A stretch of 64,000 nt of DNA, taken from assembly GCA_977017645.1 (NCBI GenBank), contig OZ360222.1:157790001-157854000 (forward strand), read 5' to 3'. A program made the translations under genes and the position numbers. This document shows, in pieces, positions 1,481 through 59,304 of the stretch. Below the pieces are notes generated by a model. It was not told the origin of the DNA. It did no database searches and saw only the letters and a program-made list of their open reading frames with translations. Within the stretch, counting starts at the first letter, position 1. Each line of letters opens with the position of its first letter. The DNA comes from Torpedo marmorata (taxonomy: Eukaryota).

Positions 1481-2816
1481 ACGATGTTAAATTGCATCTC
1501 AACCCTTAATGTCCAGATTTATTTATTCGATAGTCCTCTTGTGACTTGGCAAACCCCCTGCAGATGATGAGTAACCACGGATCAAACCATGAATTAACAA
1601 GATTATTTTCATTAACCAGTGTTTTGGTTTTGTTGACCTATTGACTTGCTCAGCAAATAATTCTATATTTTAACAAATACAGCATTTACAGGACCAATTT
1701 GATCCAGTAGAATTTAATGAATTTCCCAATTCGATAAATTCTTGTACATTAGCTCTGTTATTTTCTTTTGGGGCGAGATGCTAAGGATATAACTGTGTTT
1801 CCCTTCACTGAATTCACTTGAAAACAATTCTGTCATCCCTTCATTTGAAATTCAAACCATTTTGTTTTGTTCTGTGAAAGAAACTGCCATGATCACACTC
1901 AATCCTTGTGTTCTGTAGTGCTGATGTGAAGTTTTTGCAAGTTATTTTCAAACTCAAAATATATTTCCGTGTTATGGATACAAAAGTTATTTCTATTTGC
2001 TGATTCATTTGTTCAATATATTTTGCCTGTTTATTCGAACTCTTCTAACTGACTACACTTGATTCACAAAAATACCACGTGAATAAAGATATGATAGTGA
2101 AAATTGTTTCGGGGTGCTTTTCAGTCTGAAGCTGTACAGAAGTTTAAACTCATCAAATTTTGTCAGAGTATTCCAAAGACATTATAAATGTGCCAAGTGC
2201 TTCAGTCATTTACCTGTTCCTCATGCAGCAGGAAGGGGATACAGCTGTGGAAATGTCATTAAAACTGTCCTCCATACATGTTGTCTTGTTGCATGACTTA
2301 CCTCATTATGAATGTTGCCTGACTCTAATCATTTGCATCTGGCTGCTTCATTAAATAGAGAAACATCAGCATGCTGTTGTGTCCTCGTTCTCACGTTCTG
2401 CCATGTAGAACATTTTCAAGTAATAATGATATGCAATTGTTTAAGATATAGGTTGCATCTTAACTAAAAAAAATCACCACTGCTTGAAGAAAAGTGAAAA
2501 TGTGAACATAATGTTTGCAGTCTGCCTAGTGAATAATCTGTTTGATTTGATAAGGAAAATGTACTGAGCTAGCTTGTTTGGTAGCGTTCTTGAAATGACT
2601 GAGCTCTCGGTGAATGCATTGTTATGACTACCTAAAAGTAATATCTAAATGTTTGCAGTTTAGAGACTGAAATGGAACCTGCATGCTCCTACCTCTGTTT
2701 TTGGTCAGTCATATGGAATGCTGAAATGGAGACCAATCCCTACCAAAAAAAAAGGAGGATATGACAGCAAGTCATTTGCTGGCATTTCCCTTGATGGCTG
2801 TATCTGTCTTCCACAG

Positions 2817-2901
2817 GGGGAAGGTATACACCAAATCCGGGAAGCTTTGAAGATTTTAGCAGAGAGGGTATTAATCTTGGAGACTATGATTGGTATTCAT
2901 G
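2817..2901 (+). CDS. EMID1: EMID1 penultimate exon A (coiled coil GEGIHQIREALKILAERVLILETMIGIH)
   Basis: ccacag acceptor, gtgagt donor, phase 0 to 1; peptide nearly identical to the recalled EMID1/COL26A1 C-terminal REALKILAERVLILE motif; synteny with RHBDD3-EWSR1. Confidence 0.93.
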
Positions 2902-3535
2902 GTGAGTAAAGGGAATAGATTGATGTTTGCACTGAGTCTTGTGGCCAAGCACAACAGAGCACACAACAGAACATTAAAGATCAAGTGTTTCATTTTCTAG
3001 CTTACTTGGGACATTATCTCCAGTTTGAATTGGGTAAATCACATCAGATATGAAGAGGGAATTAAAGTACTGTTAGCACTGTATCAGCAAGCCTACATTT
3101 TTGTTGTGTGTCTGAGTGTGATGTTCATTTCTCAGTACAAACCAGTGCTGCAATGCTGCCATGTATATGTGTGTATGGGAATAACCAAATACCCAGACAC
3201 CACAACACTGGGAACCAGGAATGCCTGAGATTTATTCCAAAATAATCTCTTACACTTTGTTTCAATAGAAACAATATAATTCTGAAATTTACAATGAAAG
3301 CCTGGAAAAAATATTGAAAAATTGACATATTTACCAGCTGGTCGCTTGTAAATTTGTCTTTTTCCAAAAAGTTTAATTAAAAAATGGTCTTTCTTTCTCC
3401 TTGTTTAATCACAGTGAATTAAATTAATACTGAAACTGCTAAGAAAATGGCTGACCTGGTTCTCGAGTCCTCATCAAAACTAATTTTTAACTGGGGAACA
3501 AAACATTTTCTATTGCTGTTTTCGATTTCCACCAG

Positions 3536-3626
3536 GCTGTTAGTTGGCAGATGTTCCAAGATCTTCAAGCTGAATTAGAAGTTCTGGCTAGAAGGGTAAC
3601 CTTACTGGAAGCCATCGTGTGGCCAG
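3536..3626 (+). CDS. EMID1: EMID1 alternative penultimate exon B (AVSWQMFQDLQAELEVLARRVTLLEAIVWP)
   Basis: ttccaccag acceptor, gtaacc donor, phase 0 to 1, open frame, peptide homologous to exon A. Confidence 0.8.
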
Positions 3627-11196: not shown

Positions 11197-11327
11197 AACC
11201 TGATCATGGATCTGGGGTAGATCCTTATGCTACTATACCTCCAAATTTCTTCAGAGGCAAGAGAGGCAGCTTTGCAGCCTACAAGATTATCTCTCATAGG
11301 CTTGCACACAAAACCGAAGAGAAATGA
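11197..11327 (+). CDS. EMID1: EMID1 last coding exon (EPDHGSGVDPYATIPPNFFRGKRGSFAAYKIISHRLAHKTEEK*)
   Basis: tcacag acceptor in phase 1, in frame with both exon A and exon B; EP..GSG and RGKRG motifs as in the recalled human EMID1 C-terminus; candidate AATAAA at 11617, 12399 and 12637. Confidence 0.9.
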
Positions 11328-14684: not shown

Positions 14685-15635
14685 CGTATAGTTCAGCGTA
14701 TAAGTCGACTCGCGGATAAGTCGACCCCCCTTTTTCAGCCTAATTTTAATGGTTTTATTGTATATCCGGCATATTAGTCAACCCCCAATTTTCAGGCTGT
14801 CCGGGCCTCCCAGCAACAACCCAAAATTTGTTACAACACCCCAATCACCAAGTAACAAAGCTGTAAATTAAGCAAGTAAGTTAAAAAAACAGTAAAAAAA
14901 AAACCTTTGCTTCTGGCCGGGAAGATGCCAAATGGAGCTGGGTCCAAGTCTTCAGCTTCGGCTGCAGCCAGAGTCGGCGACGGGCGACTCCATTCTCCAC
15001 ATCGGGTGCGGTGCTGTCCTTATTGAAGAAGTCGCCTCACTGCCCAAGTGTGCTCGGTGCAGGAACCACGGTACGTGTCGGCTCCCGAGCAGGTGTGGGG
15101 ACTCGTTCTCCCGGGCAGGAGCGGCGACGTCGTTCTCCCGAGCAGGTGCGGGGATCTCGTTCTCCCGAGCAGGTGCGGGGAGCTCGTTCTCCCGAGCAGG
15201 TGCGGGGAGCTCGTTCTCCCGAGCAGGTGCGGGGAGCTCGTTCTCCCGAGCAGGTGCAGTGGGGGGGAGCTCGTTCTCCCGAGCAGGAGCGGCGACCTCG
15301 TTCTCCCGGGCAGGAGCGGCGACTTCAGGCTCTACAATTGTAGAATGTCTGGGTGGTTTATGGCAGCACCCGGCGGTGGGGAGGTGTCGGGGAACGGTGG
15401 CGGCGGCGGTGGGGAAGTGCTTCCAGCGTCAACCTATACGCCGAATCGGTTTTTCATGGGTCGACTTATACGCCAAATCGGGTTTTCAAGGGTCGACTTA
15501 TATGCCGAATCAGCGTGGAGTAGTTTTTGAGCTGATTTTAAGATCTCAAAAGTATATCTGGCGTATAAGTCGACCCCCGTTTTTTGAGAGATTTTTGAGG
15601 GTTTCAAGACTCGACTTATACGCCGAAATATACGG
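14684..15635. mobile_element. Tc2/pogo-like MITE inserted in (TA)n
   Basis: TIRs CCGTATA(G/T)TTC(A/G)GCGTATAAGTCGA, subterminal GTCGAC repeats, TA flanks. Confidence 0.85.
15080..15325. repeat. 27-bp GC-rich minisatellite, about 9 copies
   Basis: Unit TCGTTCTCCCGAGCAGGTGCGGGGAGC; explains the three repetitive ORFs at 14932-15816. Confidence 0.95.
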
Positions 15636-15693
<58 letters not shown>

Positions 15694-15712
15694 ATATATA
15701 CACAATATATAT
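15636..15712. repeat. (TA)n/(CA)n microsatellite
   Basis: Directly visible. Confidence 0.95.
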
Positions 15713-15929
15713 GTATGTCAGTCATGGCTTCTGATAATCATAAATTATTAAAATATATTACCACTAAACAGGGATCTTTAAGTAACGTTTTTGTAGTTGA
15801 TGCAAATCTATATTAAAAAAAAGGTTTTGCACTGTGACCCATGTAAAACTAGCATCGAATGTCTATATTTAAATCTTCTTTCAGGAATCTGTAAACACTT
15901 CCTTCATTATGCAGCAGTATCACTGATAT

Positions 15930-23366: not shown

Positions 23367-23430
23367 CACATCTTTCAACACAAACTGAAAGCTAAAGAGA
23401 GCTAAATTCCTGTACTACTAGAAAGGATAC

Positions 23431-23826
23431 AGAGCAAGCCAACAATAACTCCACAAATATGGAGAAGTACAGATGAACTTGATATAACAAGGTAGGCAAC
23501 TGGGAGTAGTAGCCACGGTATTGCTGCTGCATTAATCCCTGCTACAGTGAAGGTCCGTTTCATTTCAGAACTATAGCAGTTTAGTGTCACCATAGCAAAT
23601 TGAACAGTTGTGAAACCACACACAGGTGCTTCTTCAAACCTTAATAGTTTGCCCAAAAGCAGGTAAATAAGTGCAGAAAAGGCAGCAAAAATGACAGAGA
23701 GGTAAAGGTATCGAATGGTACCCAACTGTTCCTCCAGACGGCTGCTGAGGACAACTAACCATGCAATGTTGACAAGCAAAGTAAATATATTGTCATGACA
23801 GAAGCAGTAGCTTAGTAAACGGTACA
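23431..23826 (-). CDS. RHBDD3: RHBDD3 coding exon 2 (rhomboid-like TM domain)
   Basis: ctacag acceptor; VYRLLSYCFCH...EEQLGTIRYL...CGF...LLHICGVIVGLL; phase 1 to 1. Confidence 0.95.
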
Positions 23827-24489
23827 CTGTAGGAATAAAACAGAATAGAAATTAATTTACTTCCACTATTGAGGTAACCTACTTAAACTGTCGCAATCTT
23901 CCAAATATATTTCTGCAATAAAAGTAAGATGTATCTTGTTTTACTGTTAAATTGTTGATGTGTTTCAAATTTGGTGATTTTTCATGGAATTTTGTAAGTT
24001 TTATTTTACATAGATAAACTCTGGTGCCAACAGGATACCATCATTCTTTCCTAACAAATTTGCAACATCTGACATTTACTGTGCACCTGATTTTAAATTC
24101 AGCTCCCATAATGGGTCAACAATTTAAAATATTACCTGATACAACAAAGTTCATAAATAGGTTCAGTATCAGATCAATAGGATCAGGCACAGTACTGGAG
24201 GCGGAAACACAATTGGTCTTCATGTTCTTGAGTCAATTGAGAATAAAATTGATCAGGGATCCCAATATTACAGTGATGCTCAGGTCTTTTCTTGGAGGGA
24301 TATGAACACACTTAGACAATAGCAGGATCAAGTTGCATGGAACTTCCAAAACAAAAACTTTGTCAACATCACGATTAATTAGAAGAAAGGCCTCTCCAAA
24401 AGGCTTCCACAGAACAAAATATGGGCACTAAAATAAAATGTTCAAAGGGAAACAGAGATGTTTCTCTTCTATACCCAACTATTATTCTT

Positions 24490-27400
24490 TTTTTTTAATA
24501 TTTTATTTAAATTTTTTAATCACAAAATACTTAAAAAAGAATATAAAATTATCAAATTATTTGTGATACATTTTCTCCCCCCTCCCTCCCTCCCCTCCCC
24601 AACCCCCCCACCCCCACTAATCTAATAAAAATAAAATAAAAAGTAAAAATAGAAAAAAGAAAAAGATAAAGTAAGGGGAATGCCATCTATAAACTAATTC
24701 TATTATGGAGGTCAAGTGTGCCAGTAGATCCGATATCCAGAGATCTTCAAATCCTTAAACCAACAGCTTTCATATATGGGCTCCAAATTTTTAAGAAAAA
24801 ATGATATTTATTATGTAAATTATAAGTAATTTTTTCAAGTGGTATACACGAACGAAGTTCTGCATGCCATCTTTCTAATCCTAAATCTAAATCAGATTTC
24901 CAAGTAATAGCAATGCATTTTTTTGAAACAGCTAAAGCAATTCGCAAAAATTCTATTTGATACATATTTAATTTCATCTTAATACTAAATTTTCTAATAT
25001 CTCCAAACAAAAATATCATAGGATCCATTGGGAATGTAATTTTAAATACTTTATCTAAAAAATTTTTAACTTTCAACCAAAAATCATAAACTTTTGGACA
25101 AAACCATGTAGAATGTACAAAAGAACCTTCTTCTTTATTACATCTAAAACATAAACCTGATAGTGTCGGATTAAATTTCTTTAATTTTTTAGGTGTTAAA
25201 TAGTTGATGAAAAAAATTATACTGTACTAATCTGTATCTAACATTAATAATCTTCGTCATACTGAATTTACATAATTCTTTCCAATGATTTTCATCTATT
25301 CTTACATTCAAATCTAATTCCCATTTTAATCTTGATTTATGTAATCCTATTTTAGGCAATTTCCTCTGAAACAATTTATACATTTGAGAAATAAATTTAT
25401 TAACATCTCCATTAGTAACTAATAATTCTAATTCATTTTGTCTTGGTAAAATCAAAGCATAACCTAATTTCTCAATCAAAAAAGCTCTAATTTGATAATA
25501 AGCAAAAAGTGTATTATCTGATATATTAAATGTATCTTTCATTCTTTGAAAAGTAATAAATTTCCCAGCTTCAAAACAATCTTTAATCTTTTTAATACCT
25601 TTTTGAAACCAAATTTTAAATACTTGATTATTAACAGTAAATGGAATAAGTCCATTTTGATATAAAGGCATCCTTGAAGAAATCAATCCTTTTCCACCTA
25701 TTTCCTTATCTGTCTTGTTCCATATTTCTAACAAATGTTTAAAAACAGGCGAATTTTTCTTTCTTGTTAATATTAATTTAGAATCCCATTTATAAATAAT
25801 TTCTTCTTTGGAGTCATCACCTATATTATTTAATTCTATTTTAATCCAAGCAGGAGATTTAGTTGAATCCAAAAATTCATTAACAAATTTTAATTGAGCT
25901 GCTTTATAATAATTTTGAAAATTAAGAAGTTGTAAGCCACCCATTTCATAATTCCAAGTTAATTTTTCCATACCTACTCTTGCTAACTTTCCTTTCCATA
26001 AAAATTTCCTAATAATTGAATTTAAATCTTTTTTAAAATTTTGAGGAATTCCATAAGGAATTGATTGAAAAAGATATTGAATTCTTGGAAAAATATTCAT
26101 TTTAATACAGTTTACTCTTCCCATTAAAGTTATAGGTAAATCTCCAATTTTCTAAATCTTTCTTTATTTTCACAAATAATGGTAGGTAATTTAATTTATA
26201 TAAATTAGCCAATTTTGTATCAACCCTTACTCCCAAATATTTAATTCCTTCCTTTGCCCATTTAAATTGTGTAATTTCTTTACATCTACTATAATCCCCT
26301 TGTGATAATGCCATAATTTCACTTTTATCAGAATTAATTTTATATCCAGATATTTCCCCATATTCTCTCAATAAAATAGACAATTGTACTAAAGATGTAA
26401 TAGATTTTGTCATATATATCAATACATCATCTGCAAACAAACTAATTTTATGTTCTTCCATTCCAACTTTAATACCAACTATTTTAGGATCTTTTCTAAC
26501 TAATTCAGCCAAAGGTTCTATCGCCAAAATAAATAATGCTGGTGACAAAGGACATCCCTGTCTAGTAGATCGAGTCAAAAGAGATTTTGGAGAAATTTGT
26601 CCATTTGTAACTACTTTAGCCTATGGTTCTTTATATATAGTTTTAATCCAGTTAATAAATGTATTTCCAAAGCCAAATTTCTCCAGTACCTTAAATAAAA
26701 AATTCCATTCTACTCTATCAAAAGCCTTTTCAGCGTCTAATGTTAAAACTAATAGTAAATCTTCCTTCTTTTTATGTAAATTAATTAAGCTAATCAATCT
26801 AGCTATATTATCTTTTGAATATCTATTTTTAATACCAGCTTGATCTACATGAATTAAATCTGGTAAATAATTAGCCATTCTATTTGCTAGAATTTTTGCC
26901 ATTATCTTATAGTCTACATTTAATAATGAAATAGGTCTATAAGATTCAGTTTTCATTATATCTCTATCCTTCTTTGGTATAACTGTAATTATTGCATTTT
27001 AAAAAGTATCCGGTAATGAATGAGTTTCCGTAATTTGATTCAATACTTCCATATATGGAGGTATTAATAAATCTTTAAACTCCTTATTAAATTCTGATGG
27101 AAACCCATCTTCACCTGGAGATTTACCACTCTTTAATGAAGAAAGAACTTCATTAACTTCCCTCATTGTAAAAGTTAAATCTAAAGATTCTCTACTTTGA
27201 GTATTCAGTTTAGGTAATGTAATTTTAGATAGAAATCTAGTAATTTTAGAATCATCTTGATCAATCTGAGATTTATATAAATTCAAATAATAATCTTTAA
27301 AAGAATCATTTATTTCTCGAGGTTTATAAGTTATCTCTCCAGAGTTTTTTTTTTATATAGCATTTATAGTTCTAGAAATTTGATCTTTTTTTAATTGCTA

Positions 27401-43936: not shown

Positions 43937-45360
43937 GTACGGTTTTGACTTCTATTATCGGATTTTACTTGCATCTAAATTGTATGATTAATTCTGAATC
44001 TGTTTTTTTTATTGCTGTCTGTTGTGCTTTCTTGGGTAGAAGGGACAAGTGCAGGTTAGAATGCCTGGTCATTGTTGCATGATTATGTTTTGTTGGATTG
44101 TTTTGCATCAAACATCTGAAACTTCAATGTAAAAGTAACTTTGGTGTGCATGCTGAATGTTGTCAATAGATTTTGTGCCCTTTATGCTACAGGGGGGACA
44201 AAAAACAAGTTGTCCTTAAAACTAATTTTTAGATTGGCTAGCATTGAGCTATTAATGGAATTTGTACAGTCCTTTGCTATACAGAATATTTATCCATGAG
44301 CATCTCAAGTTACATGTTTGAAATGGCTCAATTTGCCACTGGGTATTTCTTAATTTCAGCAAGTATAATTTACAAAACTTGGTCCATTATTACAAATTCT
44401 AGTTGCAGCCCTGATTAAATTTTAGTAGCAAACAGAATTAGATCTTTTGTTTTTCATGTTATCAACTGAAAGGTTATGTTTCTAAATCTTCCCTGAAAAT
44501 GTGCAAGATTCACTGAACTGTTAATTAATTGTTGGATTGACAGCATAAGGTAGAAATGTGTGCAAATGTTTTTTTGAATTCACAAGTTGGATTTTTCACT
44601 AAAATGGATTGGGCATTCCTTTTGGCCTACTTGGTATTTCATTAAAGAACTGTAATGACGCCGGCTGAATAAATCTTCCATTAAATATATCTATGTGCTG
44701 CTTGTTTCCAGAGCATGCAGTAGGTGTAATATTAGTGTTGGAAATCGGTTTGTTGAGCCTGTTGTCCCAAAATAGAGGGGTTGAAAAGTTCTATTTCAGA
44801 TAATCTTTTGAAGGAGATCTCTGACTGATGCAAGCAAGAATATTTGAAGGAACAATATTGGTGTTGGATCCGTTGTCTGGGCCCTTGTGTGGACAAATTG
44901 ACAAGGCATATTAAAATGTCAGGTGCAAATGCATTTGGTTAACTGCTGTGAGAAATTGGTGAATTTTCTTCCACCCTTTTGTGCTAGAATACATAGAATA
45001 AAACCACTGTTGGTTCCTGATTCCAAGCTTGTGTATCATCTCATCAATGTTTGGTGGACCTTTCAGTGACGTGGGCCTGGTCATGCAGTATTCCTTTCCT
45101 AATCCCCTCCATCTCCCCATCCTTTTTAAGATCAAAATAAACATTTCCTAATTACCTTTTTTGAGCCTCCAAAGCACTTAGTATCTTAGTATCCTTTCAA
45201 ACATAAAGATATGTTGACATTTTCTCTTTCAATGACTGGTCTAAAGTTATGCTCCTCTTTTCAGTGTACTTGAAAATGTAAATTTTACATGTTGAAATAT
45301 GTTGCGTTGTGTAAATATAAAACTAGTAGATGCTTTAGTGCATTTTTCCTTTTTTAATAG

Positions 45361-45535
45361 GTTATAGTGCGCCCATTGCACCTCAGGCTTACAGCCAACC
45401 TGTGCAGGCTTATAGTGCAACTGGATATGACAGCACTGGTACTCAAGCTACATATGGTCAGCAGCCAGCCTATGGACAGCAACCCACCTACGCTGCATAT
45501 GGGCAGCACACAGCGACAACTGTTGCACCTACCAG
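45361..45535 (+). CDS. EWSR1: EWSR1 exon 5
   Basis: GYSAPIAPQAYSQPVQ...APTR, phase 1 to 2. Confidence 0.95.
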
Positions 45536-45614
45536 GTATGTATATATATATGTAATGCAGGTGAAATGTGCAAAAAAGGAAGTTAATAATACTGAAGATA
45601 TTCACAGGAGACTA

Positions 45615-46077
45615 CCGTATTTTTACGCATATAACGCGCGCGTTATATGCGTTTTTTACAAACCAGGTACACCCCCACGCATTATATGTGTGCGCGCTAT
45701 ACGAGAATATTTTTACATGTTGAAACAAGGCGCACGATTTAAATCATAACAGGATTAAATCTTGCTTAACTCTGAAGCCGATCTATTTAATTGAATCCTC
45801 TCCAAAACTTGTTAATGTGTTGAAGGAGTATGTCATCTATATAATGGACGATTAACACCTCTGGGGGAGTTGAATGGGTGTAAATAGCAGGAGATTAACT
45901 GTGGCAGATAGTGAGACTATGGAATGTGTTTTGTCTCATGTCCCAATTAAATGCAAATTGCTTTTGTCAGTCGGAATTTAGAATACTACACCTGCGCGGT
46001 ATATGCGTGTGCACATTATACGAAAATATTTTTACAGAATTTATGATTTTCTGCGCGTTATTTGAGTGAAAATACGG
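45615..46077. mobile_element. Tc2-like MITE
   Basis: CCGTATTTT termini, TA TSD, 28-bp palindrome 45625-45652. Confidence 0.8.
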
Positions 46078-46474
46078 TATATCTGCTGTGCCAGTGAGTT
46101 CTTTTTCTTTTATGGCTTATTTTTCATGAAGCTCTAATTGCTAGAGACTACATTCTGATTTTTAATTTGGGGTGAATGAGCATTTAATTATTTATAAATG
46201 GATCGTGGCATGGATAACTTGGGCCATGATAAGTTTTTGGGAGAATTCGATCAAGGTGGACTTTTGTTGGCTAAACAATTATTGACCGATTCTTTAACTT
46301 TGGCTAAGGTAATACTTGGTAAGTATCCAACTTTGCCTCAGAAAAGGGTTTCCTCAAGTATGTATCATTGTTACTTTTCCTTTTCTCTTTCTACCATTCC
46401 CTGTTGTCTACCCCAAAGTGAATATTATCTTTTAAAGTGGAGCAGCTTTGCCTAATTGCTGATTTAAATTTCAG

Positions 46475-46639
46475 AGCACAAGATACGACCAAGCAAGATG
46501 ATTACAGCCAACCAAGTACTGGGTATGCTCAATCCAGTGTGGGATACAGCCAGACAAATTATGGATACCCTCAAATGAGTGTTCATGGAGCTTATCCTCT
46601 TCAGCCTCCCAGTGCTCCTCCATCTTTTCCTCCTACAAG
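46475..46639 (+). CDS. EWSR1: EWSR1 exon 6
   Basis: AQDTTKQ..QPSTGY..APPSFPPT, phase 2 to 2. Confidence 0.93.
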
Positions 46640-46794
46640 GTAATTTTTTTCATGACTGATGTGATGTAAGGAATAGGATTTTTCTACATTATAATGGGAG
46701 GGTAGCGAAGATGTCTTGAAGGTTGACATCAGATTTTTCCCACCTGGGTTGTGTTTATTATGTATGACATTAAATTGAGTGGAAAAGCAAATTG

Positions 46795-47560
46795 TGGAGG
46801 ACATAATTCTGCGGAGAGTTGAGATAGGTTAAGCAAGTGATTGGATAAAGCTGGAGTACAATGTTCATATATGAGAAGTCATCCACTTTGAAAGGATAAT
46901 AAATCACGTTATTTAAATGGTGAAAAATTGCAGCATGCTGTTGTGTAGAGACCTGGATATGCTTGTATATGAACTACAATAAGTTAGTCTACAGGTGCAT
47001 CAGTTAATCAAGAAGGTAAATGGGATTTTAGCCTTCATTGCTAGAGGAATTAAATTTAAGAGCAAGGAGCTGCAGCTGTGCAGAATATTGGTGAGGCTGC
47101 AACTCGGGTACTGAGTGCAATTCTAGTCTCCTTACTTGAGAAAGGATGTACTGGCTTTGGAAGAGGTTCACCTGGTTGGTTGATTCATTGGAATTTAGCA
47201 GGATGAAGGAAGGTGAGCAAAAATATAACATGAAAGTAATAGATAAGGGAGATGTTTCCCCTAGGAGATGGTACTAGAACTAGGGGATATAGCCTTAAGA
47301 TTCGGGGGAGTAGATTTAAGATGGATAAGGAAGAACTGCTTTTGCCAGAGGTTAGTGAATTTGTGGAATTCTCTGCCCAAAGAAGCAGTTGAAACTGACT
47401 CATTAAATGTATTTAATGCACAAATAGATTTTTGAAAAATGGGGGAATTAAGAGTTGAGGGGAACAGGTGGGTATGTGGAGCTGAGTCCATGGCCATACC
47501 AGCCACGATCTTGTTGAATGGCAGACCGGCCTTTGCGTGCCAGTTGACTGACTTGTATTT
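46795..47560 (+). mobile_element. CR1 LINE 3' fragment
   Basis: Degraded CR1 ORF2 C-terminal sequence (LAFIARGIKFKSKE, TRTRG). Confidence 0.75.
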
Positions 47561-48050
47561 TATTGTGAGATTATATTGTCCTATACACAAGTGCAATGTA
47601 GAGATGCACCATCAATTTTACTTGCTGCAGCCACACAGGTATGTGAGATAAACCAACAATAGTTTAAATTAAACTACCATAGTGGCCATGAGTCTAAACG
47701 AATTATCTATAAAATTATAGATAAATATTTACTGTTGCAGTTGGTGCACATGGGTCTCTTGGTGGTCCGTGTCGTTTATGGTTAGGATCATTCAGGGAAG
47801 TTCAAAAGCCTCTTGGCTTTAAAGGCTAGAAAGATGTATATTTTCACCCAAAAAAAGTGACAAGAAATCAATTTCTTTTCTAAACAGAAATTGGGTTGTC
47901 TCCCAAAATTATATTTGTAAGTACTTAAAAACTGATCTTGCCTACATCAGCCAACTGCTTTGACTGTATGTGCAGTAATTTGTTATATCATTGGGAGGAA
48001 AGTTGGAGTTCTCCAAAGGAGAATATATTTCAATCTATTATCCTCTATAG

Positions 48051-48705
48051 CAGGGGTGGCCAAACCGCGACTCGCGGTAATATGCTGGCTGAGACAGGAA
48101 TCGTACAGTGCTCACAATGGTAGTTGTGGGTGTGGCTTGCAATTGAATACCGTATATATGTGTGTAATAGTCAATACCATGTAAAAGTCGACCCCAATCC
48201 CGCAGCCCCCCCCCCTAATTTTGGCTCTGCCCGCCTGCCCATCCGAGCTCCTAACACCCCAACCACAGACTCTCGCCTTGGCCCAGCCCGTTTTCCCCCA
48301 TCCGAGCTCCCGACACCTTGAACGCAGACTTGCCACCCGGGTGCCGGCTCGCCCATCCGAGCTCCCAACGCCCCAAATGACGCAAGTACTTAACGTGGTC
48401 AAAAGTAGTATGCGTGTAATAGTTGACCCCTTAATTTTACTCTATAAAAATTGGTCCACAAAATTCAACTATATGCGGTATGTATACTTTTTGATTGACA
48501 CTTAATACAAATTAGCAGTTTAAAAACTGCATACATGACTAAATATTATGCACATGTATTTCTTAATATTGATACAAAGTTTTTGTAACAAAATGTGCAC
48601 GCAAAAATAAAAACGTGTATTATATTTTTTTCATGTATTGTGGCTCTCAAACATCTGAAGTTTATCGTATGTGGCTCTTGCATTAAGCAAGTTTAGTCAC
48701 TCCTG
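48051..48705. mobile_element. hAT/Charlie-like element with nested Tc2-like MITE (about 48150-48487)
   Basis: TIRs CAGGGGTGGCCAAAC and CAGGAGTGACTAAAC, 8-bp TSD ctctatag/ctctctag. Confidence 0.85.
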
Positions 48706-48914
48706 CTCTCTAGTCTTTTGAATATTCATTTCAGATCTACATGTCAGTTTATTTCCTAAGGCCCTTAATTTATTTTGCTAATATTTCAATATTCGGTGTT
48801 TTTAGGCAACATAATCCATATCTTAACCCTTTGAAAACAAAATGATTTGTTGATTCATTTGATTTTAAACTTGAGACCATTGGTTATCAAACTTGCCTTT
48901 TTTTGTTTGTATAG

Positions 48915-49111
48915 TTACAGTAGTACCACTCAGCCAACTGCCTATGATCAGAGTACCTACAGCCAGCAGGCAAGTTATGGACAACAGGGGAGTAGCTATG
49001 CGCCACCACCACCCCCAACAGGAGGATACAGCCAGCAGCAACCACCTACAGGGTTTGGTCAGCAGTCTAGTTATGGACAGCAAACAGACTATAGTCAACA
49101 AAGCCAGTACA
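48915..49111 (+). CDS. EWSR1: EWSR1 exon 7 (SYGQQ repeats)
   Basis: SYSSTTQPTAYDQS...QQSQY, phase 2 to 1. Confidence 0.95.
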
Positions 49112-49381
49112 GTAAGTTCTATTTTTTGTATTTTCATTAAATTGTATGAGAAATATGGTTAAATAATCGGTTTGAATTTGTACAATGGGCAAGAACAAGT
49201 AGCAAAGGAGCTATTAGAAGCAATTTCTGTTTTTGTGAACTATTTTCAAGGAGTAAATCCTTTGGCTAGATGTCAAACATGTCTAAATCACCTTTTGATA
49301 CTTGATGCTCATTTCTAAATTTCCTCATTGTCCTGAATGGAGAATAATGCTAACAAATTAATCAATGAAATGTTGCCCTAG

Positions 49382-49562
49382 GTACCTATAGGCAGGAGCA
49401 ACCATCCACCAATAGCATGAGTGGGTATGGACAAGACCAGAGTAGCTATGGAACCTCAACCAGTAGCTCTGAAAACCGGAGCAGAAGTCGTGGAAGCTAC
49501 GATCAAGGAAGTAGAGGCAGTAGTTACAGCAGAGGTGGTCGGAGTGGACGAGGTGCCATGGG
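49382..49562 (+). CDS. EWSR1: EWSR1 exon 8 (first RGG region)
   Basis: STYRQEQPSTNSMSGYGQD...RGGRSGRGAMG, phase 1 to 2. Confidence 0.93.
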
Positions 49563-52005
49563 GTAAGATGACCTCTTCCTTTTGGAACGATTAGTAAAAG
49601 AAATCACCCCAGAGTAATAGTTAACAATACAGGGCTGAAAGTGTTCAGCTGATTTTAAAAATACTATAGCAAAAATAACTTGGGTTTAACTGGCCACATT
49701 CCCAAATTTCCAAAATCTCAATCTCTAGAGCCAAATGTAAAGGTAACTTTTAAATGCAATATCCACATGGATATAGATTTTGATTTTTTTTTAAAACCAT
49801 GGCCTATTTTAAAAACTTTGTCCAGAACTTTATAATGTGAAATGATTACAGTTTTCAGCCCTGCTCATTTTCCAAAGGCAATGTCCATCTTCTGTGGAAT
49901 AATTTACATGCCCTCCACTTCCGATGTAAGTATTTAGATAAAATTATCAGTGTAATTTTAATTTGCTTTGAAATGTGCTTTCTGTATTTGCCAAATTAAT
50001 ACAATTTGTAGTTTGAAATGGGATTTGAAAACCTTTTGAATCTAATTTGAATTGATTTTTCAACATTTTGCATGTTGATACTAAACAATATATGAATTTG
50101 GGGAAGGATGACTTAAAACATAGCATTTGCTCCACATTATGACATTGCCTTCCTGGGTGAAACCTTTAATCCTGAGAAGTCATGTTTAATTGTCCCTCGG
50201 TTTCTCTTTAAATATTGCTTTAAGATAGGTGAGAACATAAATGTGTTCATGTAACAATGTTATATATTTGGAGTATCTCTCAAACATCACTACATCAATC
50301 TTGTTACTATATTGGGAAAGGAAACAGTTTCTTCCATTTGGCTGTTTTACTTCCTGAAGAATTAAAATATTTTGCAATGGCAAAATTATGGGGTGTCAAG
50401 TGGAACAGCTTACAAATTGGTTTTGTGATTATTTGGAAACTGGGATCATTTGTGCTGGGAAATGTGAATTATACATTTTATGCTAATATCGGCTTTGCAT
50501 TATGCATATGCCGTTTTCCTTTTGAAAATCGATGTAGCAATTTTTGAAAGTTGGACTCCTTGTGGCCAATTTTGCTTTTGCTAACACCCTCCAAATGCAG
50601 AAGTATAATTACTGCACTTAATTTAGGAGAATACGATAAAGGTTTCACTTCAACGTCTGGAAGTTAACTTGACTATTTTAAGTTGATGGGGTTTCCATTT
50701 GCCAGGAGTTATGGTCTTTAATTTTAGAAAAAAAATGTTGTGAATAATATGAACCGATAATTTAGTTGGACTTGAGTTGTATGCATTTACCAAAAAAATA
50801 GGCAATGGAAACCCTATAGTCATTGCATTGAAAGACTCCGTTGTACTTGTATACTAATCGACAAGGGAGCTGAAAGCATTATCGGGATATGCCTTGTAAT
50901 AGGCAGGGTCAGTGGAAAATAAGAGTTACCCGGTACTCTATTCTTTTTTAATTTGAACTTGCCAGTAAGGGTTTTTTAACAAATGTAATTTTTAGATGGC
51001 CTCTTGTTCAAAAATTACTTTTAATTCAAGCACAATCATTGTGCAACTTGTTCAAATGGGCATTTTTATGTACCAAAAGCAATTACCTGGCAGTGATTTC
51101 AGTGTCAAATTTGTTTGAGGCAAGTGTCAAGCTGTGTATGAGGGTTGTTTTAAATTGTTGGTTGTGTTTTTGCACTCTGTGTGCCATTCAGCCGCTTTAG
51201 TCCTTGTGATCTAAATTTACCAACTTCAATCGAAGATACACCTACATTTTACTTGGAATAGTGAGGAGATGTTAGGCTAAGGTTTGTTTTTATTCCTATC
51301 CCATTGTGGGTTGTAAATATGTGTGACCGATCAGACTGTGCTTGAGTACTCCTCAGTCATCACTGTGCTTTGTCTGAAGAATGACCACTTAGATGCTGCA
51401 TCATAAAACTGCTACCATCAATAGAATCTTGTCCTGCAATAGATCGTTGCTCTTCTCCCTTTCTAATACAGACGCTTATCAATGATACTCGTGTATTAGA
51501 AAAACATTTTTTCTTAAAAGCACTTGCTAAGCATGAGTTTCCTAATTAATGGGTACAAATGCTCTGATTCCACTGACCCTGGCAACTTAATGCCACTTAG
51601 TGGTCATTAGTATATTATAATCTGAGGTATTCTAGTCAATCTTAACATCCTCATTAAATGCTCTTCTGGCACTTGACTGGATTGGGTAAATATTTCAAAT
51701 CTATTCTACATCCCACTGCACACACTTGTGTTTCACTTATAACTGCTAAATTGCTGTCAAGTTGCTAATTCAAATCAGATGAAGGTAAGTATCTTGCTTT
51801 TTTGTGTACTAAGGTACGAAAACGTGGATCAGTTAGATCTGAAAATGCCTGTAACCCCTCATTTCTATTCATTATAATAAAGGCACAAATGGGTGTGTCT
51901 ATGTCCTTCCCAGTAAGGGAAGCTTGGTATAGTAAATTGCTAATCACCGATTGTTATTGCAACAATTTTTTTTTAAATCATCCATCTGATGGGCGTGTGG
52001 GAAAA

Positions 52006-52250
52006 GGGCAGCACGGTTGGCGTAGTGGTTAGCGCAACGCCTTTACAGCCAGCAATCGGGACCAGACCTGGGTTCGAATCCCACGCTGTCTGTAAGGAGT
52101 TTGTACGTTCTCCCCGTGTCTGTGTGGGTTTTCTCCGGGGGCTCCAGTTTCCTCCCACCCTTCAAAAACGTACCGGAGTGTAGGATAATGGGGTGTAAAT
52201 TGGGTGGCACGGACTCATAGGGCCGAATTTGCCTGTTACAGTGCTGTATG
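52006..52250 (+). mobile_element. V-SINE/HE1-like SINE
   Basis: tggcgtagtggttagc A box, GGTTCGAATCC B box. Confidence 0.85.
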
Positions 52251-53879
52251 TGTTTTTTAAAAAAAAAAAAACATTAATTAAACTTAGTTTCCCATGTTGA
52301 TAGTACTTATGCTGTATCTAAAACAGGCCAGTTTGAAATGTTAGTGCCTATTGATATTTAAATGTAACCTACTGGCCTGTTTTAAAATAAAACTCATGGG
52401 TAAATGGTTGATGGTGTGTTTCCACTACAGACACAACGCAGTGGGGTAAATTGAATTAACATTCTCCCTGAGGTAGGGAGGGAAATAAGCCAGAATTTTC
52501 ATTCTGAATTTGTATGGGGAAAGTATGGGTGTCAGTTACAGAGCTGAATGGGCTTTACTGTGATAGCCTTTTGTGTTTGAACAGTTTGCCCTGCTGTGTA
52601 ACAAATGGTTACTTCAGTGACTTGTGGATTTGATTCCCAATATGAGCCATTGGTTTTGTCAGACTTGAATTGGATGAAAAACCGTTTACCTTTTTTCTCC
52701 ATTCATAAATCTATAGCATCATTTGGTAACTCAAACACCTTTGAGTGTAAAGCAGGTCTGTTACCCTCAGAGGGTACAGCTAAGACACAAAATGACACCT
52801 TTACTAAATTTTTACTAATAGTTGGTCAGAACTCATCCTCTACTGCTATCTCGTATCTGACCTATATCTCAATCCTGTATCCGTGATTTGACTTGTTCAG
52901 TGCTTAATAGTTCAATCAACGTACAGTTTCTGGTTTCTACAACTTGTGTTTTTTTTTTAAATACTGAACTTGATACAACCTGGGTCATAGTCTCTCAGAA
53001 TCATGCGCAGGGTGGAAAAATGTACCATTAAATGATAATTTGATTGTACGAAGTTCATTTGTTGAGGTGCACAGAAGTTATTGACAAAACATTCATTTTC
53101 TCACTGCATTGTGGAAAAGGTTCAAGCCTGTACTTTTATCCCAAAGTTAGAGTTGGTTTAAAATGAGGTACAGCAATTGGGCTCTACCAGTTTTGCCATT
53201 AAATTTTGAGGTGCGAACTGCCGTGCCAGAATTAGTCAATTGGTACACGAATATTTGCTAAATTAGTTGATCATATGTGGGTGCTGTATTTTTGGAATCT
53301 CGCAAAGAATTGCGATAAAAGTGTAAAAACTTTGTTGTCCTCATAACTGGATGATTTCCTAACCATTATTCTGACCCCAAATCTCCAACTTAGATGTAGG
53401 TTTAAGTGTTTAATTTATAAATAAAAAAATCAATTTAGCCAATTTAATTATGGGAATAAATATGTTTTTTTTTAAAAAGTCTAAGCTGGAAAGATGAGTG
53501 CACTGCTTCTGGGTTTTTAATGACCAAAATAAAAATCAGTAAGAGTATAGATTTACAGTTTGGAGGGGGTTGTCCACATTTTAACTTGGATTGATCATGT
53601 AAATATTTCATTTAAATAATGGGGGGTAAATAAAGCTTTTATTGGAAATGCCGATTGCAGCTGTAAATGATTGGAGTGAGGAGTTTACTTTATCATGTTG
53701 TTTACTCTTCTGTGGGAGAATATAACTGTACAGAGCCTAAGCAGTACGATACTGCTTTCACTCCCTTGTTTGCAGGTAAGTATTAGAATGTAGTTTTAAT
53801 AATGCCAATACAGTATTTATTTTAAATGCTTGATTATGGAAACTATGTTAACATGCTTTGTCGCATTTATATGCTACAG

Positions 53880-53919
53880 GTTACAAAGTGAGAGCCTTGT
53901 TTACACTTCAATACTTTAA
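53880..53919 (+). CDS. EWSR1: EWSR1 alternative terminal exon in intron 8 (G|LQSESLVYTSIL*)
   Basis: ctacag acceptor in frame with exon 8; matches the recalled tail of the short human isoform, LQSESLVYTSIL...LSRQHNEKWD. Confidence 0.75.
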
Positions 53920-54411
53920 ACTATTTTGACTGAGCCGGCAGCATATTGAAAAGTGGGACTAGACACGTTTTCTACATATGTATGGACAAAAAAAAATGTG
54001 TATGGTGTATGCAAGTGGAGTAATACATAAAGCATGGTATTGTACACTTGTAATGTAAACATGGTATTTATTATTTACAGTAATATGTAATTTATTTGGA
54101 AGTTAAAAGAATAATGTAAAACTAGTGTAACGGTTGCTTAACAGTTCTGTTATAAAACTGCATGCACCAACTTTAGTTGTTGAGACCCTGTTACTGGCAA
54201 GTCAAACAGTGAAGGTGTATATGGTTTTTGAGGGTGTACGAAAGCTTTAGGAGAACTACTGTGAAGAAAGGCAAACTCGCAGATGAAAACTGGTGAAACT
54301 TCAGAGGCCTTAGCCAGTGCTTTTAAAGAGACACGAGTTTCATCATTGAGCCTTAGGCTCAAGTGGTACTGGCATAAGGGATACTTCATTTCTTCATATT
54401 TGTCCCTGCAG

Positions 54412-54446
54412 CGGTGTCGACCGGGGTGGCTTCAGTAAGCCTGGTG
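54412..54446 (+). CDS. EWSR1: EWSR1 exon 9 (GVDRGGFSKPG)
   Basis: ctgcag acceptor, gtaagt donor, phase 2 to 1. Confidence 0.93.
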
Positions 54447-54588
54447 GTAAGTTTTTAGTATTAAAATGGTTAGTCAAATACATTGTGTTTGCAGTCTGTG
54501 ATTTGGGGAAATTCTTTTGCATAGTAAAAGTTTGCGTGTATACAAAATTCAACACGTGTCAGCTGCTGGCATTAAAGTGGGTCTGCGT

Positions 54589-54822
54589 TAAAATGGGTCT
54601 CAAATTACCTGATACAGTGGTGAATATGGAAGTATAAAGTGACTAATCACTTGAATGATGGGTTTTTCCATAAAATGGGTTTCAAATTACCTGATGTTGG
54701 TGGTGACTATAACGTGTAGAAGTGATTAAACACTTAAGTGAGGGGTTTACATTAAAATGGGTTTCAAATTCACGATGCTGATGATGAATATAGAAAGTGA
54801 ATAACCACTAAAATGAAGTGGT
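54589..54822. repeat. Degenerate 82-bp tandem repeat, 3 copies
   Basis: taaaatgggt(c/t)tcaaatt starts at 54589, 54671 and 54753. Confidence 0.85.
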
Positions 54823-55055
54823 ATAAAGCACAAAATGGTTTATTTATTAAAAAATTAAATGGGGGAATTTTTAAAAATAAAATTGTAATTTTAAATTTTA
54901 CTGAAGATTTTCACATGGTATGGTCTTGCATTCGCAGTGCATCTCAGTTGAATGAATAACCAATAAGAGGTGCCGGAATTATAGGTCTAGGTTTTAAAGG
55001 TAGTGGTTTAGTGGGATGCAAAGTAATGGTTGTATTCCTTTTTCTCTCCATCCAG

Positions 55056-55091
55056 TCACGGCCGTAGAAGAAACTCCGGAGCCTGAACCAG
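55056..55091 (+). CDS. EWSR1: EWSR1 exon 10 (VTAVEETPEPEP)
   Basis: Strong pyrimidine tract with ccag acceptor, gtaatg donor, phase 1 to 1; peptide is divergent. Confidence 0.8.
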
Positions 55092-55309
55092 GTAATGATT
55101 AAAATTCTTATCAGGGTTCAACTTTGCGCGGCCCCTTTTTTATATTGTTGCCTTTCTGTTGTGTGTATTTGAAATGCTTGTCTCTTGTTATGTCCCTGCT
55201 AGGATATTTTGTAAGTAGCAATGGATCCTGTCTAAATACGGGCAAAATTGTCGCAAGCAATTATTTTAGTGTTGCTTCTCTTTAAAATTCTCTTTAGAAT
55301 TATTTTAAA

Positions 55310-55547
55310 TTTAGACATACAGCACGGTAATGGGCCCTTTCGGCCAACAAGCCCGTGCTGCCCAATTACACCCAATTGACCGTACAACCCCCGGTATGTT
55401 TTGAAGGGGGGAGGAAACTGGAGCCCCCGGGGAAAACCCACGCAGACACGGGGACAACGTACAAACTCCTTACAGAGCGCAGGATTCGAACCCTGGTCCC
55501 GATCGCTGGCGATGTTACAGCATTGCACAAACCGCTTCACTAACCGT
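55310..55547 (-). mobile_element. V-SINE/HE1-like SINE
   Basis: Reverse-complement homologue of 52006-52250. Confidence 0.85.
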
Positions 55548-55906
55548 GAATTTATTTAGTCTATTTTCCACATTTGTAGAGGGTTTGGATTTAAACATCT
55601 ATTTTGGTGTGCTTTTCATTAGTGTCATGTGGATCAATCACTAACAATAATTGTAAGACTAGTACAGGAATGTTGTTTCTTGCTATTTTAAAATGTTTTG
55701 GAATGTTTTACATTTCGGTAGCTTTGCTTTCCTTAGCTGTGACTTTGTGTTTTGATAAGTTGAGAACATGTTCTCCCCTTTGTATGGTATATTGGCTTTT
55801 GTTTCAAGAGGCTTTGATTAGAAGAGTAAAAAAACATTTGCCAAAATTATATAGGACCACACATAGAGTTTAACATAGTTTTTTTGGTGCCCTTGCCTTT
55901 AAAATA

Positions 55907-56640
55907 CTGTATTTGACGGCGTATAGAACCCACTGGCATATAGGGACCCCCCCCTCCCCATTTTTAGCATGAGATTTCAGGAAAATTTTGTTAGTGTATT
56001 TACCTTCACAGCAGCAACACGTCCTCCTGCCTGCCGAGGCTCGGGCTGCTTCCCCCCCCCCCCCCACCGTCCAAACGCTAATTGATTGGTGTGCCGGGAC
56101 CTGCGCACGAGGGTGGGAGGGAGAGAAGCCAGGACAGAGGGCAGGGCCCAGGCCCACTGTCACGGGGAGCAGACAATCGATCGCTTGCTTTGAGGGGAGC
56201 GCTGGGCATCCGTGATCAGGCTCCACGCTGAGCCTTTGTTTGACACGCACGGCCCCCCGAACAGATTGAATGAGGCGCTCTTCCCCTTCCCCTTTCTCGC
56301 CCCCCGAACAAAGCCTGATCATCGAGGCCCAGCACTGTTGATGAGAGCAGGAGGGAGAAAGCGGGCGGGAAGGAGAGTGCGGGTGGGAGCAGGCATACAG
56401 GAGAGCGAATTGGAGGGAGAGTAGCAGAGAGCGAACGGGAGGGAGAGAACGAGCCTTCTTACTGGGGGAAGTGAGTGAAAGCACGGGCCACTCAAGGGAA
56501 GGTGGTCCGCGAAGCTGCTGGCCTGCTTCCTGGACTCCACTCGGTGCCCAAAATGGCGGCACCAAAATGTCACCTTCGCGTTTTTGAGGCGATTTTTTTG
56601 GGGGGAAAGGGGGGGTGGTCTTATATGCCGTCAAATACGG
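55907..56640. mobile_element. Tc2-like MITE, GC-rich
   Basis: TIR C(T/C)GTATTTGACGGC(G/A)TATA, TA TSD. Confidence 0.85.
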
Positions 56641-56801
56641 TAATACTCTTACTGTAAAGAGTTTTTAAGCAAACACCTACCAGGCTAGTCCATGGAATGA
56701 CCGATTTGTTCATGAGAGCAGAAAGTGGTGTTGATGTAAAAAATTGGCCAGAATAATATTAAATCATGGTTCAGCCTTTACTGTTCCTTCTATTCTCCAC
56801 A

Positions 56802-58911
56802 TAGTGCCCTCCATAATCTTTGGGACAGACACCATTTTCCTTTATTTGTCCCTGTGCCCCATAGTTTTAAATTTGTAATCAAACAATTCACATGTAATTA
56901 AAGTGCACATTCCAGATTTTTTTATTCAAGGTTATTTGTATACATTTTGGTTTGACCCTGTAGAAATTACAGCACTTTTTATACATAGTCCCCTCATTTC
57001 AGGGCACCATAATATTTGGGACATTTGGCTTCACACGTGTTTGAGAACTTAGGTATGTTTAATTGCTTCATTGGTGCAGGTATAAGAGAGCTAGGCTTGC
57101 TTCTAAGCTTTTGATTACCTTTGGAGTCTGCAGTTGCCATTTTTTTCAACTTGAGGACCAGAGTTGTGCCAATGAAAATCAAAGAAGCCATTATGAGGCT
57201 GAAAAACAAGAATAAAACAGTCAGAGACATCACACAAACCTTAGGTTATCAAAATCAACAGTTTGGAACATAGTCAGAAGAAAGAGTGTACTGGTGAGCT
57301 CAGTAATCACAAAGGGACTGGTATTCCAAGGAAGACCTCCACTGCTGATGACAGAAGAGTTCTCATTATAATGAAGAAAATTCCTCAAGTATGTCCGACA
57401 GATCAGAAACACTTCAGGAGGGTGGTGTGGATATGTCAATGACTACTGTCCCCTGAAGACTTCATGAAAGGAAATACACTAGTGAGCCACAGAAAGGGTG
57501 ACCAGATTAGTTTGCCAAGTATTTAAGAGCCTGCAGAATTCTGGGAAAAGTTCCTTTTGACTGATGAGACCAAGATAAACCTGTATCAGACTAATGGCAG
57601 CAGCAAAGTGTGGAGGTGTAAAGCAACTACCCAAGATCCAAAGCATACCACCTTTGCCATAGTTTGCATCTGGCAGAGTAGCCTCTATATTTATTTTCAA
57701 GAAGTTTTCTGCAGACAGAAGTCATAGACCTGCCTTCTGAAGAGTGTTTTGTGATCTGCTGGACATGCATTTGGGGATTTTTCTTAATTTATGATGAGAA
57801 TTCTTCTGTCATCAGCAGTGAAGGTCTTCCTTGGCCTTCCAGTACCTTTGCAATTACTGAGCTCACCAATACGCTGTTTCTTCTTATTGATCAAACAGTG
57901 TCTTTTATGTAGCAAAGGTAGAAATACATAACCGATGTTTCGGGCTTAAGCCCTTCATCAAAGTATGAGAAAATGCTGGCAGGCGTCCGAACAAGAGTGG
58001 GGTGGAAGGGGGGGTGGCAAAGGCAGGAAATGATAGGTGGAGAAAGGAGGGAGGGGACAGCAGCAAAGAGAGGCAGGCTGGGTGGGTGGAAAAACTGGAA
58101 GGACAGGGAAGGGGGGGGGGGAGGGGAAGGAAAAGACAAGCAGGTTTAGTGGAAAGCAGAAAAGTCAATGTTAATGCCATCTGGCTGGAGAGTGCCCAGA
58201 CGGAAAATAAGATGTTGTTCCTCCAATTTGCGGGTGGTCTGGGTGGGATAGTCAGCCATCCCTCCCACCCAGCCATCCCTCCTCCCACTCTGCTGCTGTC
58301 CCCTCCCTCCTTTTTCCACCTATCATCTCCTGCCTTTGCCACCCCCCTTTCCCCCCCCCCCCCTTACTCTTTTGTTCGGACGCCTGCTGACATTTTCTCA
58401 TACTTTGATGAAGGGCTCAAGCCCGAAACGTCGGTTATGTATTTCTACCTTTGCTACATAAAAGACACTGACCTGCTGAGTTTCTCCAGCATTTGTGTTT
58501 TTTACTTCAACCACGGTGTCTACAGAATTTTGTGGTTTACTTCTTATTGATGTCCAAACAGTTGATTTTTGTAATCCTAGAGTTTGGGTTGATGTCCCTT
58601 ATGGTTTTATTCTTGTTTTTCAGCCTCATAATGGCTTCTTTGATGTTTCATTGGCACAATTCTGGTCCTCATGTGGAAAACTGGCAATTAGACTCCAAAA
58701 GTGATCAAAAGCTTAGAAGCAAGCCTAACTCTCTTATACCTGCACCAATTAAGTAATTAAACATACCTGAGTAATCACAAACACCTGTGAAGCCAAGTGT
58801 CCTAAAACATTATGGTGCCCTGAAATGAGGGGACTATATATATATTTAAAACTAGAGCACAGGGGCAAATAAGGTAAAAAAGTGACTTTGTCCCAAACAT
58901 GGAGGGCACTG
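56802..58911. mobile_element. Tc1 derivative with two inverted 5' halves
   Basis: CAGTGCCCTCCAT ends; transposase N-terminus (KIKEAIMRLKNKNKTVRDI) present on both strands. Confidence 0.8.
57892..58539. mobile_element. Penelope-like insertion with inverted termini, nested in Tc1
   Basis: 12-bp TSD cttcttattgat (57880-57891 and 58540-58551); hammerhead-like core 58405-58432 with an inverted copy near 57935-57961. Confidence 0.85.
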
Positions 58912-59054
58912 TACATTCAAATAGCATATTCACTGTTAACATGGGATTAAAGATTGATTTAGACCTTTCTTGAGGGATAATGATACATACCCCTTTGTAA
59001 TTTAATGTTTTGTTTTTGTTTGTTAAATTTAATTCTACATTCCTCCCCCCACAG

Positions 59055-59224: not shown

Positions 59225-59304
59225 GTTTGTTGATTGATGTGTGCTGTTGACTGTGTTTATATTGGTTTTTCCGTTATTATAACTTCACAATTCTCCATTT
59301 GTAG

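What the first reader, a model, noticed from the sequence alone, without database searches (positions are those of the whole stretch)
2817..3626. Tandem homologous, mutually exclusive coiled-coil exons in EMID1
Seen: two exons (85 and 91 nt) both start in phase 0 and end in phase 1, and both are in frame with the last exon at 11197. They encode alignable heptad peptides: QIREALKILAERVLILETMI and DLQAELEVLARRVTLLEAIV. Including both would cause a frameshift. Inference: an old exon duplication gives a splice switch of the C-terminal (probably trimerising) coiled coil that follows the collagen domain. The A version is more basic and the B version more acidic, which could change chain or partner selection.
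Basis: partly seen in the sequence, partly recalled or inferred. Interest (0 to 1): 0.7.

Follow-up and report, generated by a model that had tools for sequence, protein, structure and literature searches.

The report
Ancient swappable coil exons in EMID1
This cartilaginous-fish gene for the matrix protein EMID1 carries two ancient alternative copies of one short exon, a pair already catalogued in the human gene, and each copy encodes a helix that likely ties three protein chains together.

Summary
Exon A (2817-2901, 85 nt) and exon B (3536-3626, 91 nt) have AG/GT ends. Both fit between the last collagen exon and the last exon, and joining both creates a stop.

It is already known. Martinez Gomez 2021 (PMC8373072, Table S1, event 68) lists this pair in human EMID1 with the same exon lengths, dated to Gnathostomata. 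This scan also found it before on other DNA (e1-8046860). Of 195 fetched proteins, 104 carry A only, 81 B only, 4 both (each with extra linking residues) and 6 neither.

Both exons keep an RhxxhE trimer motif in heptad register, so a trimerising coiled coil is likely. The complex model was not available. The charge-switch idea is not supported: net charge is -1 versus -2 here, and the order reverses in human.

Two small additions: a hagfish model carries a B-type stretch, so the split may predate jawed vertebrates; and A, not B, nearly matches the COL26A1 coil, which gives a testable heterotrimer hypothesis.

The parts
2817..2901 (+). Exon A, 85 nt, phase 0 to 1, 28-aa coiled-coil helix; the form that nearly matches COL26A1
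2865..2882 (+). RhxxhE motif of exon A (R17-E22, heptad positions g to e)
   Evidence: motif definition from PMC5940361 passage
2902..3535 (+). GT-AG intron between A and B, 634 nt; no sign of steric exclusion
3536..3626 (+). Exon B, 91 nt, phase 0 to 1, 30-aa coiled-coil helix ending in W-P
3541..3543 (+). TAG reached only if A is joined to B; 83 nt upstream of the last junction (predicted NMD trigger)
3593..3610 (+). RhxxhE motif of exon B (R20-E25)
2748..2816 (+). Intronic stretch before exon A that is conserved with chimaera (20 of 23 codon translations match a Callorhinchus model); candidate splicing-control element
11197..11327 (+). Coding part of the shared last exon, with an R-G-K-R motif at 11253-11264

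Best explanation
Exons A and B are an ancient tandem-duplicated pair in EMID1, found one at a time in nearly all database protein models, and each encodes a short heptad helix right after the collagen domain that likely forms a parallel three-stranded coiled coil and so likely starts or locks the trimer. Shown: splice signals, frames, either-or models across jawed vertebrates, identity with the catalogued human event, shared a/d core and RhxxhE motif. Inferred: double inclusion is cleared by nonsense-mediated decay (stop 83 nt before the last junction), probably on top of regulated exon choice. Inferred: the switch keeps the trimer core but changes the outer face (b, c, f positions), the collagen-to-coil linker (A starts with G-E-G, B does not) and the W-P end. 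It therefore more likely tunes stability or partner binding than adds or removes trimerisation. A is the usual form that matches COL26A1; B is the variant.
For: Frames and splice sites. 104 A-only, 81 B-only, 4 both, 6 neither of 195 proteins. Both forms named in 16 of 16 hand-picked species. Human exons of 85 and 91 nt in PMC8373072 event 68. Heptad register: A a/d I4, I7, L11, L14, V18, L21, I25; B F7, L10, L14, L17, V21, L24, V28; R(g)-E(e) in both. RhxxhE is described as a trimer-stabilising salt-bridge motif (PMC5940361 passage). AlphaFold monomer helices at 434-455 (A) and 434-458 (B), pLDDT about 66-81 in overall poor models. EMID1 is secreted as dimer and trimer (PMC8361151 passage). 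Contigs of three runs from relatives (RNA only a guess) cover exon A and the last exon at similar depth in two of three runs.
Against: 4 of 195 models hold A and B together through extra residues, one of them an NCBI isoform X6 of a cat, so exclusivity may leak. A Stegostoma model skips both exons. RhxxhE arises in 3-5% of shuffles of each peptide, so the motif alone is moderate evidence. Most proteins are gene models, not shown proteins; the proteomics cell for event 68 is blank. A 2026 paper calls the C-terminal domain's function unidentified and ascribes trimers to disulfide bonds (PMC13051103 passage). Conservation counts are partly circular, because sequences were picked by motifs inside the exons.
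Confidence: 0.75

Rival explanations
1. The switch governs hetero-assembly with COL26A1. A-form chains can co-trimerise with COL26A1 through a near-identical coil, while B-form chains cannot or prefer themselves.
For: The A core matches named COL26A1 cores at 16-18 of 22 positions but B cores at 7-9 of 22. EMID1 and EMID2/COL26A1 are said to form homo- and heterotrimers (PMC13051103 passage citing Leimeister 2002). No B-type stretch turned up in a named COL26A1 (names checked for 5 of 28 B-type representatives).
Against: The a/d core and the R-E pair are shared by A and B, so there is no obvious exclusion code. The two genes are described as mainly epithelial versus mesenchymal, so co-expression may be rare. 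The reported heterotrimers are disulfide-linked.
Confidence: 0.25
2. Charge-coded chain selection: a basic A and an acidic B sort chains electrostatically.
For: K12/E16 in A versus E15/R19 in B, and R8(e) versus Q11, A10(g) versus E13.
Against: Net charge is -1 versus -2 here and -1 versus 0 in human, so the order is not conserved. The differing e/g residues face neutral partners in the heptad register.
Confidence: 0.1
3. The helix is mainly a binding surface for another matrix or chaperone protein, or a higher-order bundle, and trimerisation rests on the N-terminal coil and disulfides.
For: A is invariant at 23 of 28 positions over 108 sequences, including exposed hydrophobic b/c positions (selection partly circular). 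A second RhxxhE coil lies N-terminal to the collagen. Disulfide-linked trimers are reported.
Against: The core pattern and motif fit a classic trimer. A C-terminal trimer domain next to a collagen is the usual way collagens start folding (general knowledge, recalled). The two roles are not exclusive.
Confidence: 0.2
4. B is a low-use or vestigial exon kept without a distinct function.
For: B is more variable than A (15 of 30 versus 23 of 28 invariant positions). The proteomics cell is blank in the catalogue. All 9 listed unnamed Logan proteins of the skate cluster are A-form.
Against: Length, frame and the C-terminal half of B are kept from sharks to human and in a hagfish model.
Confidence: 0.07

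Closest known systems
Human EMID1 tandem-exon substitution, event 68 of Martinez Gomez et al. 2021 (PMC8373072 Table S1; ENST00000334018 vs ENST00000404820); gene also listed by Lam et al. 2021 (PMC7954323)
   Same: Same gene, same position, exons of 85 and 91 nt (28 and 30 aa), internal substitution, dated to Gnathostomata.
   Different: The table gives no function. The N-terminal half of human B is Gln-rich. The hagfish B-type model suggests an older date than listed.
Annotated EMID1 isoform pairs in NCBI/UniRef (Narcine bancroftii X1/X2 vs X3/X4; skates, sharks, teleosts, armadillo)
   Same: Exon peptides of Narcine are identical to the window's; same exon order.
   Different: No difference of kind; this window is one more orthologous locus.
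COL26A1 (EMID2, collagen XXVI) C-terminal domain
   Same: Near-identical A-type coil after the collagen (16-18 of 22 positions).
   Different: No B-type exon was seen in named COL26A1 proteins; COL26A1 introns were not searched.
RhxxhE short trimeric coiled coils (Kammerer 2005, seen only as cited in PMC5940361)
   Same: Motif at g-a-x-x-d-e in both exons.
   Different: Oligomer state of these peptides is not measured; no PDB match for either peptide.

Membership tests
EMID1 orthologue | EMI domain plus collagen repeats, then the C-terminal domain | tested here: met
   Pfam EMI and Collagen found in the close homologues P0001 and P0014. Their residues from about 163 to the end map exon by exon to the 200 kb upstream and the window. 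The EMI exons themselves were not located in the fetched stretch.
EMID1 orthologue | Closer to EMID1 than to COL26A1 | tested here: met
   Exon B is 100% and the last exon 98% identical to Narcine EMID1. A rhomboid-domain gene lies downstream on the minus strand; RHBDD3/EWSR1 synteny is recalled, not from a call.
Tandem-duplicated homologous exons | Adjacent exons, alignable peptides, same phases, similar length | tested here: met
   (1 of 10,000 shuffles reach the score)
Mutually exclusive exons | Each exon used alone in isoforms of the same species | tested here: met
   16 of 16 hand-picked named species have an A-only and a B-only model; these are models, not reads
Mutually exclusive exons | Never both and never neither in mature mRNA | tested here: inconclusive
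   4 of 195 models hold both through extra residues and 1 skips both; no junction counts were obtained
Mutually exclusive exons | An enforcing mechanism (steric, U2/U12, docker-selector, or frameshift-NMD) | tested here: inconclusive
   Frameshift with a stop 83 nt before the last junction is shown. Steric and U12 routes are not supported (634-nt GT-AG intron). No duplex beat the control. NMD itself was not tested.
RhxxhE trimeric coiled coil | Motif in g-a-d-e register within a heptad helix | tested here: met
RhxxhE trimeric coiled coil | Forms a parallel trimer | not tested

The most novel reading that the evidence does not exclude
The A/B pair is as old as vertebrates (a hagfish EMID1-like model carries a 30-aa B-type stretch) and works as a splice switch for collagen chain selection. 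A keeps EMID1 compatible with COL26A1 heterotrimers, and B, possibly favoured where RBFOX proteins repress A, uncouples it. That would give a function to the 'conserved C-terminal domain of unknown function' of the EMU family.
Probability: 0.2. Interest if true: 0.5.

Novelty: already known. Interest (0 to 1): 0.2.

Why it matters
As a discovery it matters little: the exon pair is annotated in many vertebrates and catalogued for human. What remains open is function. A 2026 paper still calls the C-terminal domain's function unidentified, and my eight literature searches found no study of the A/B choice. The register analysis makes this cheap to test: two peptides of 28-30 residues, and one co-expression test with COL26A1. 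A splice-controlled chain-selection coil in a collagen-like protein would interest matrix biologists.

Tried and rejected
1. RNA evidence. No RNA holder was listed; the three runs were small-share relatives with RNA only guessed. In one search, repeats crowded the joint tables, so no A or B junction was displayed. The bin holding exon B had depth 0, 8.35 and 0, and the X2 cover included intron positions. This says nothing for or against use of B. No junction-level view was obtained.

2. Trimer modelling.

3. PDB sequence searches of both peptides gave 0 hits at E<=10. Pfam gave only a sub-threshold coiled-coil hit for B.

4. Steric exclusion was rejected: the intron is 634 nt with branch-point-like sites 45-127 nt from B's acceptor and a 68-nt AG-free zone. 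U2/U12 incompatibility was rejected: all sites are GT-AG.

5. Docker-selector pairing was not supported: 48 short inverted repeats, none outstanding among the 25 shown; best duplex -30.0 versus control best -30.9 kcal/mol. This is one species only, with no covariation test.

6. COL26A1 was not found in the own genome by the exon-A search (1 candidate). The search is a lower bound, so no conclusion follows.

7. Hatje 2017 lists a different, upstream EMID1 candidate, not this pair, in the rows seen. PMC9741552 has no EMID1 hit in its text or held supplement.

8. No cyclostome A-type protein was identified among the 20 representatives looked up by name (3 had no name).

9. dN/dS was not computed: no orthologous DNA was available.

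Full report
Observation. The two exons are at the stated coordinates. A (2817-2901, 85 nt) and B (3536-3626, 91 nt) have AG acceptors and GT donors, run phase 0 to 1, and each reads in frame into the last exon at 11197 (stop 11325-11327). The preceding collagen exon lies outside the window (L002:875-919) and ends in phase 0. Joining A to B gives a TAG at 3541-3543, 83 nt before the last junction. Skipping both shifts the frame and stops early in the last exon. The peptides align without gaps over 19 residues, and 1 of 10,000 shuffles reached the score. No third copy was seen.

Gene. The B peptide retrieved 12 proteins of 33 candidates, 11 of them named EMID1 or emid1, from rays, a shark and teleosts. 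Narcine EMID1 maps exon by exon from about residue 163 to the end onto the 200 kb upstream and the window, with exon B 100% and the last exon 98% identical. So this is EMID1 of a cartilaginous fish, probably a ray. Pfam gives EMI and Collagen for the homologues. A rhomboid-domain gene lies downstream on the minus strand; that this matches human EMID1-RHBDD3-EWSR1 order is recalled.

Either-or use and conservation. Of the first 89 proteins, 40 had A only, 43 B only, 0 both and 6 neither. Of 106 further proteins (new rows among the best 120 listed of 661 hits), 64 had A, 38 had B and 4 had both. All four double models insert extra residues between A and B. One is an NCBI isoform X6 of a cat, which may reflect a real upstream acceptor, so exclusivity may leak. 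One Stegostoma model skips both exons. Sixteen hand-picked named species each have an A-only and a B-only model. These are gene models, not reads. B-type proteins were also named in a frog, a turtle, a cobra, a bird and armadillo. Contigs of three runs from relatives (RNA only a guess) cover exon A and the last exon: bin depths 4.07, 34.8 and 15.1 against 4.08, 35.7 and 22.9 expected if A travels with the last exon. No junction was displayed.

It is already catalogued. Supplementary Table S1 of Martinez Gomez et al. 2021 (PMC8373072; I saw supplement rows, passages and part 1 of 4 of Results) lists EMID1 event 68. The human exons are chr22:29254203-29254287 (85 nt) and 29255271-29255361 (91 nt), internal, last common ancestor Gnathostomata, proteomics cell blank, and marked as in Lam et al.. 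Lam et al. (PMC7954323) list the gene id in a supplement (one row seen). Hatje 2017 (PMC5740500, supplement rows) lists a different EMID1 candidate. PMC9741552 had no hit in text or supplement. Eight searches (listings and abstract starts only) showed no study of what the switch does. Subscription papers and bioRxiv supplements were not visible and could hold one. The scan noted the same pair in another genome (e1-8046860).

How the peptide likely works. Anchoring the heptad on the Arg gives hydrophobic a/d cores in both exons, and both hold R-h-x-x-h-E at g-a-x-x-d-e. PMC5940361 (passages) describes this motif as stabilising parallel trimers by g'-e salt bridges, citing Kammerer 2005 (not read). 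The motif arises in 981 and 618 of 20,000 shuffles of A and B, so it is moderate evidence alone; a second copy sits in the coil before the collagen. Single-chain AlphaFold models are poor overall (mean pLDDT 44-46) but place helices at 434-455 (A) and 434-458 (B). EMID1 is secreted as dimer and trimer (PMC8361151 passage). I infer a trimerising coil that follows the collagen. This was not modelled as a complex, and a 2026 paper still calls the domain's function unidentified and ascribes trimers to disulfides (PMC13051103 passages).

What the switch changes. The core and the R-E pair are shared. Differences fall at outer b, c and f positions, at neutral-facing e/g positions, in the linker (A begins G-E-G and so extends the Gly-X-Y register in this fish; B breaks it and is two residues longer), and in B's W-P end. 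The charge argument fails: -1 versus -2 here, and -1 versus 0 in human (counted). A is invariant at 23 of 28 positions in 108 sequences and B at 15 of 30 in 84, though sequences were picked by motifs inside the exons. A profile search returned 146 representatives. Of the 140 new ones, 39 were EMID1-type A, 69 COL26A1-type A (told apart by one residue; names checked for a few), 26 B-type and 6 unclassed, of which 2 are divergent B types, 2 are COL26A1-type variants and 2 look unrelated. A matches named COL26A1 cores at 16-18 of 22 positions, and B cores at 7-9. This suggests, untested, that A keeps compatibility with COL26A1 and B changes it.

Age. One divergent B type is a Myxine glutinosa 'EMI domain-containing protein 1-like' model of 189 aa. 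Its core matches B cores at 11-13 of 22 and A cores at 8-10, and it groups with B at 99/100 in a 22-column, 16-row tree with a long branch. If the model is right, B-type exons predate jawed vertebrates. It is one partial model, no cyclostome A was identified, and orthology was not established.

How exclusivity is enforced. The 634-nt GT-AG intron argues against steric or U12 routes. No RNA duplex beat the control. Frameshift plus predicted NMD fits. There are leads for regulation. The 69 nt before A translate 20 of 23 like a Callorhinchus model, so that intron stretch is deeply conserved. Three GCATG sites lie in the 600 nt before A (0.56 expected, P about 0.02, window chosen after looking), none between A and B, and one after B. 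Reading these as RBFOX sites that repress A rests on recalled knowledge.

Verdict. Real, ancient and already known; interest 0.2. The remaining value is a concrete functional hypothesis and a possible older date.

Noticed in passing
window 11253-11264: R-G-K-R in the last exon. An R-x-K/R-R motif follows the coil exon in 195 of 198 EMID1-type proteins, a possible proprotein-convertase site (label recalled) that would clip the tail just after the coil.
   Followed up: partly
window 2640-2816: The intron upstream of exon A is conserved with other cartilaginous fish (P0230 unnamed, P0198 Callorhinchus); in-frame AGs at 2663, 2708 and 2771 have poor pyrimidine tracts.
   Followed up: partly
window 2290, 2369, 2680, 4086: (T)GCATG motifs: three before exon A, none between A and B, one after B; pattern expected of RBFOX favouring B (recalled rule), weak statistics.
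   Followed up: partly
P0327 (Myxine glutinosa model): B-type 30-aa stretch in a hagfish EMID1-like protein; may predate the published Gnathostomata date.
   Followed up: partly
P0336 / P0211 (Discoglossus pictus): The two listed frog models are a divergent B form and a skip-like form with a different tail; no A form among them.
   Followed up: no
window 23402-23851 (-): Rhomboid-domain exon (Pfam E 2.6e-20); likely RHBDD3 (name recalled).
   Followed up: partly
window about 45339-63603 (+): Exons with a SYGQ-rich part, an RRM-like start and RGG repeats; likely an EWSR1-type gene (name recalled; Pfam did not confirm the short piece).
   Followed up: no
window 24747-27352 (-) and 60096-61680: Broken LINE-like reverse-transcriptase reading frames.
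   Followed up: no
window 14885-15816; L020:8670-9590; L021:9730-10000: Tandem arrays of a roughly 27-nt unit, open in several frames, recurring at several places near the gene.
   Followed up: no
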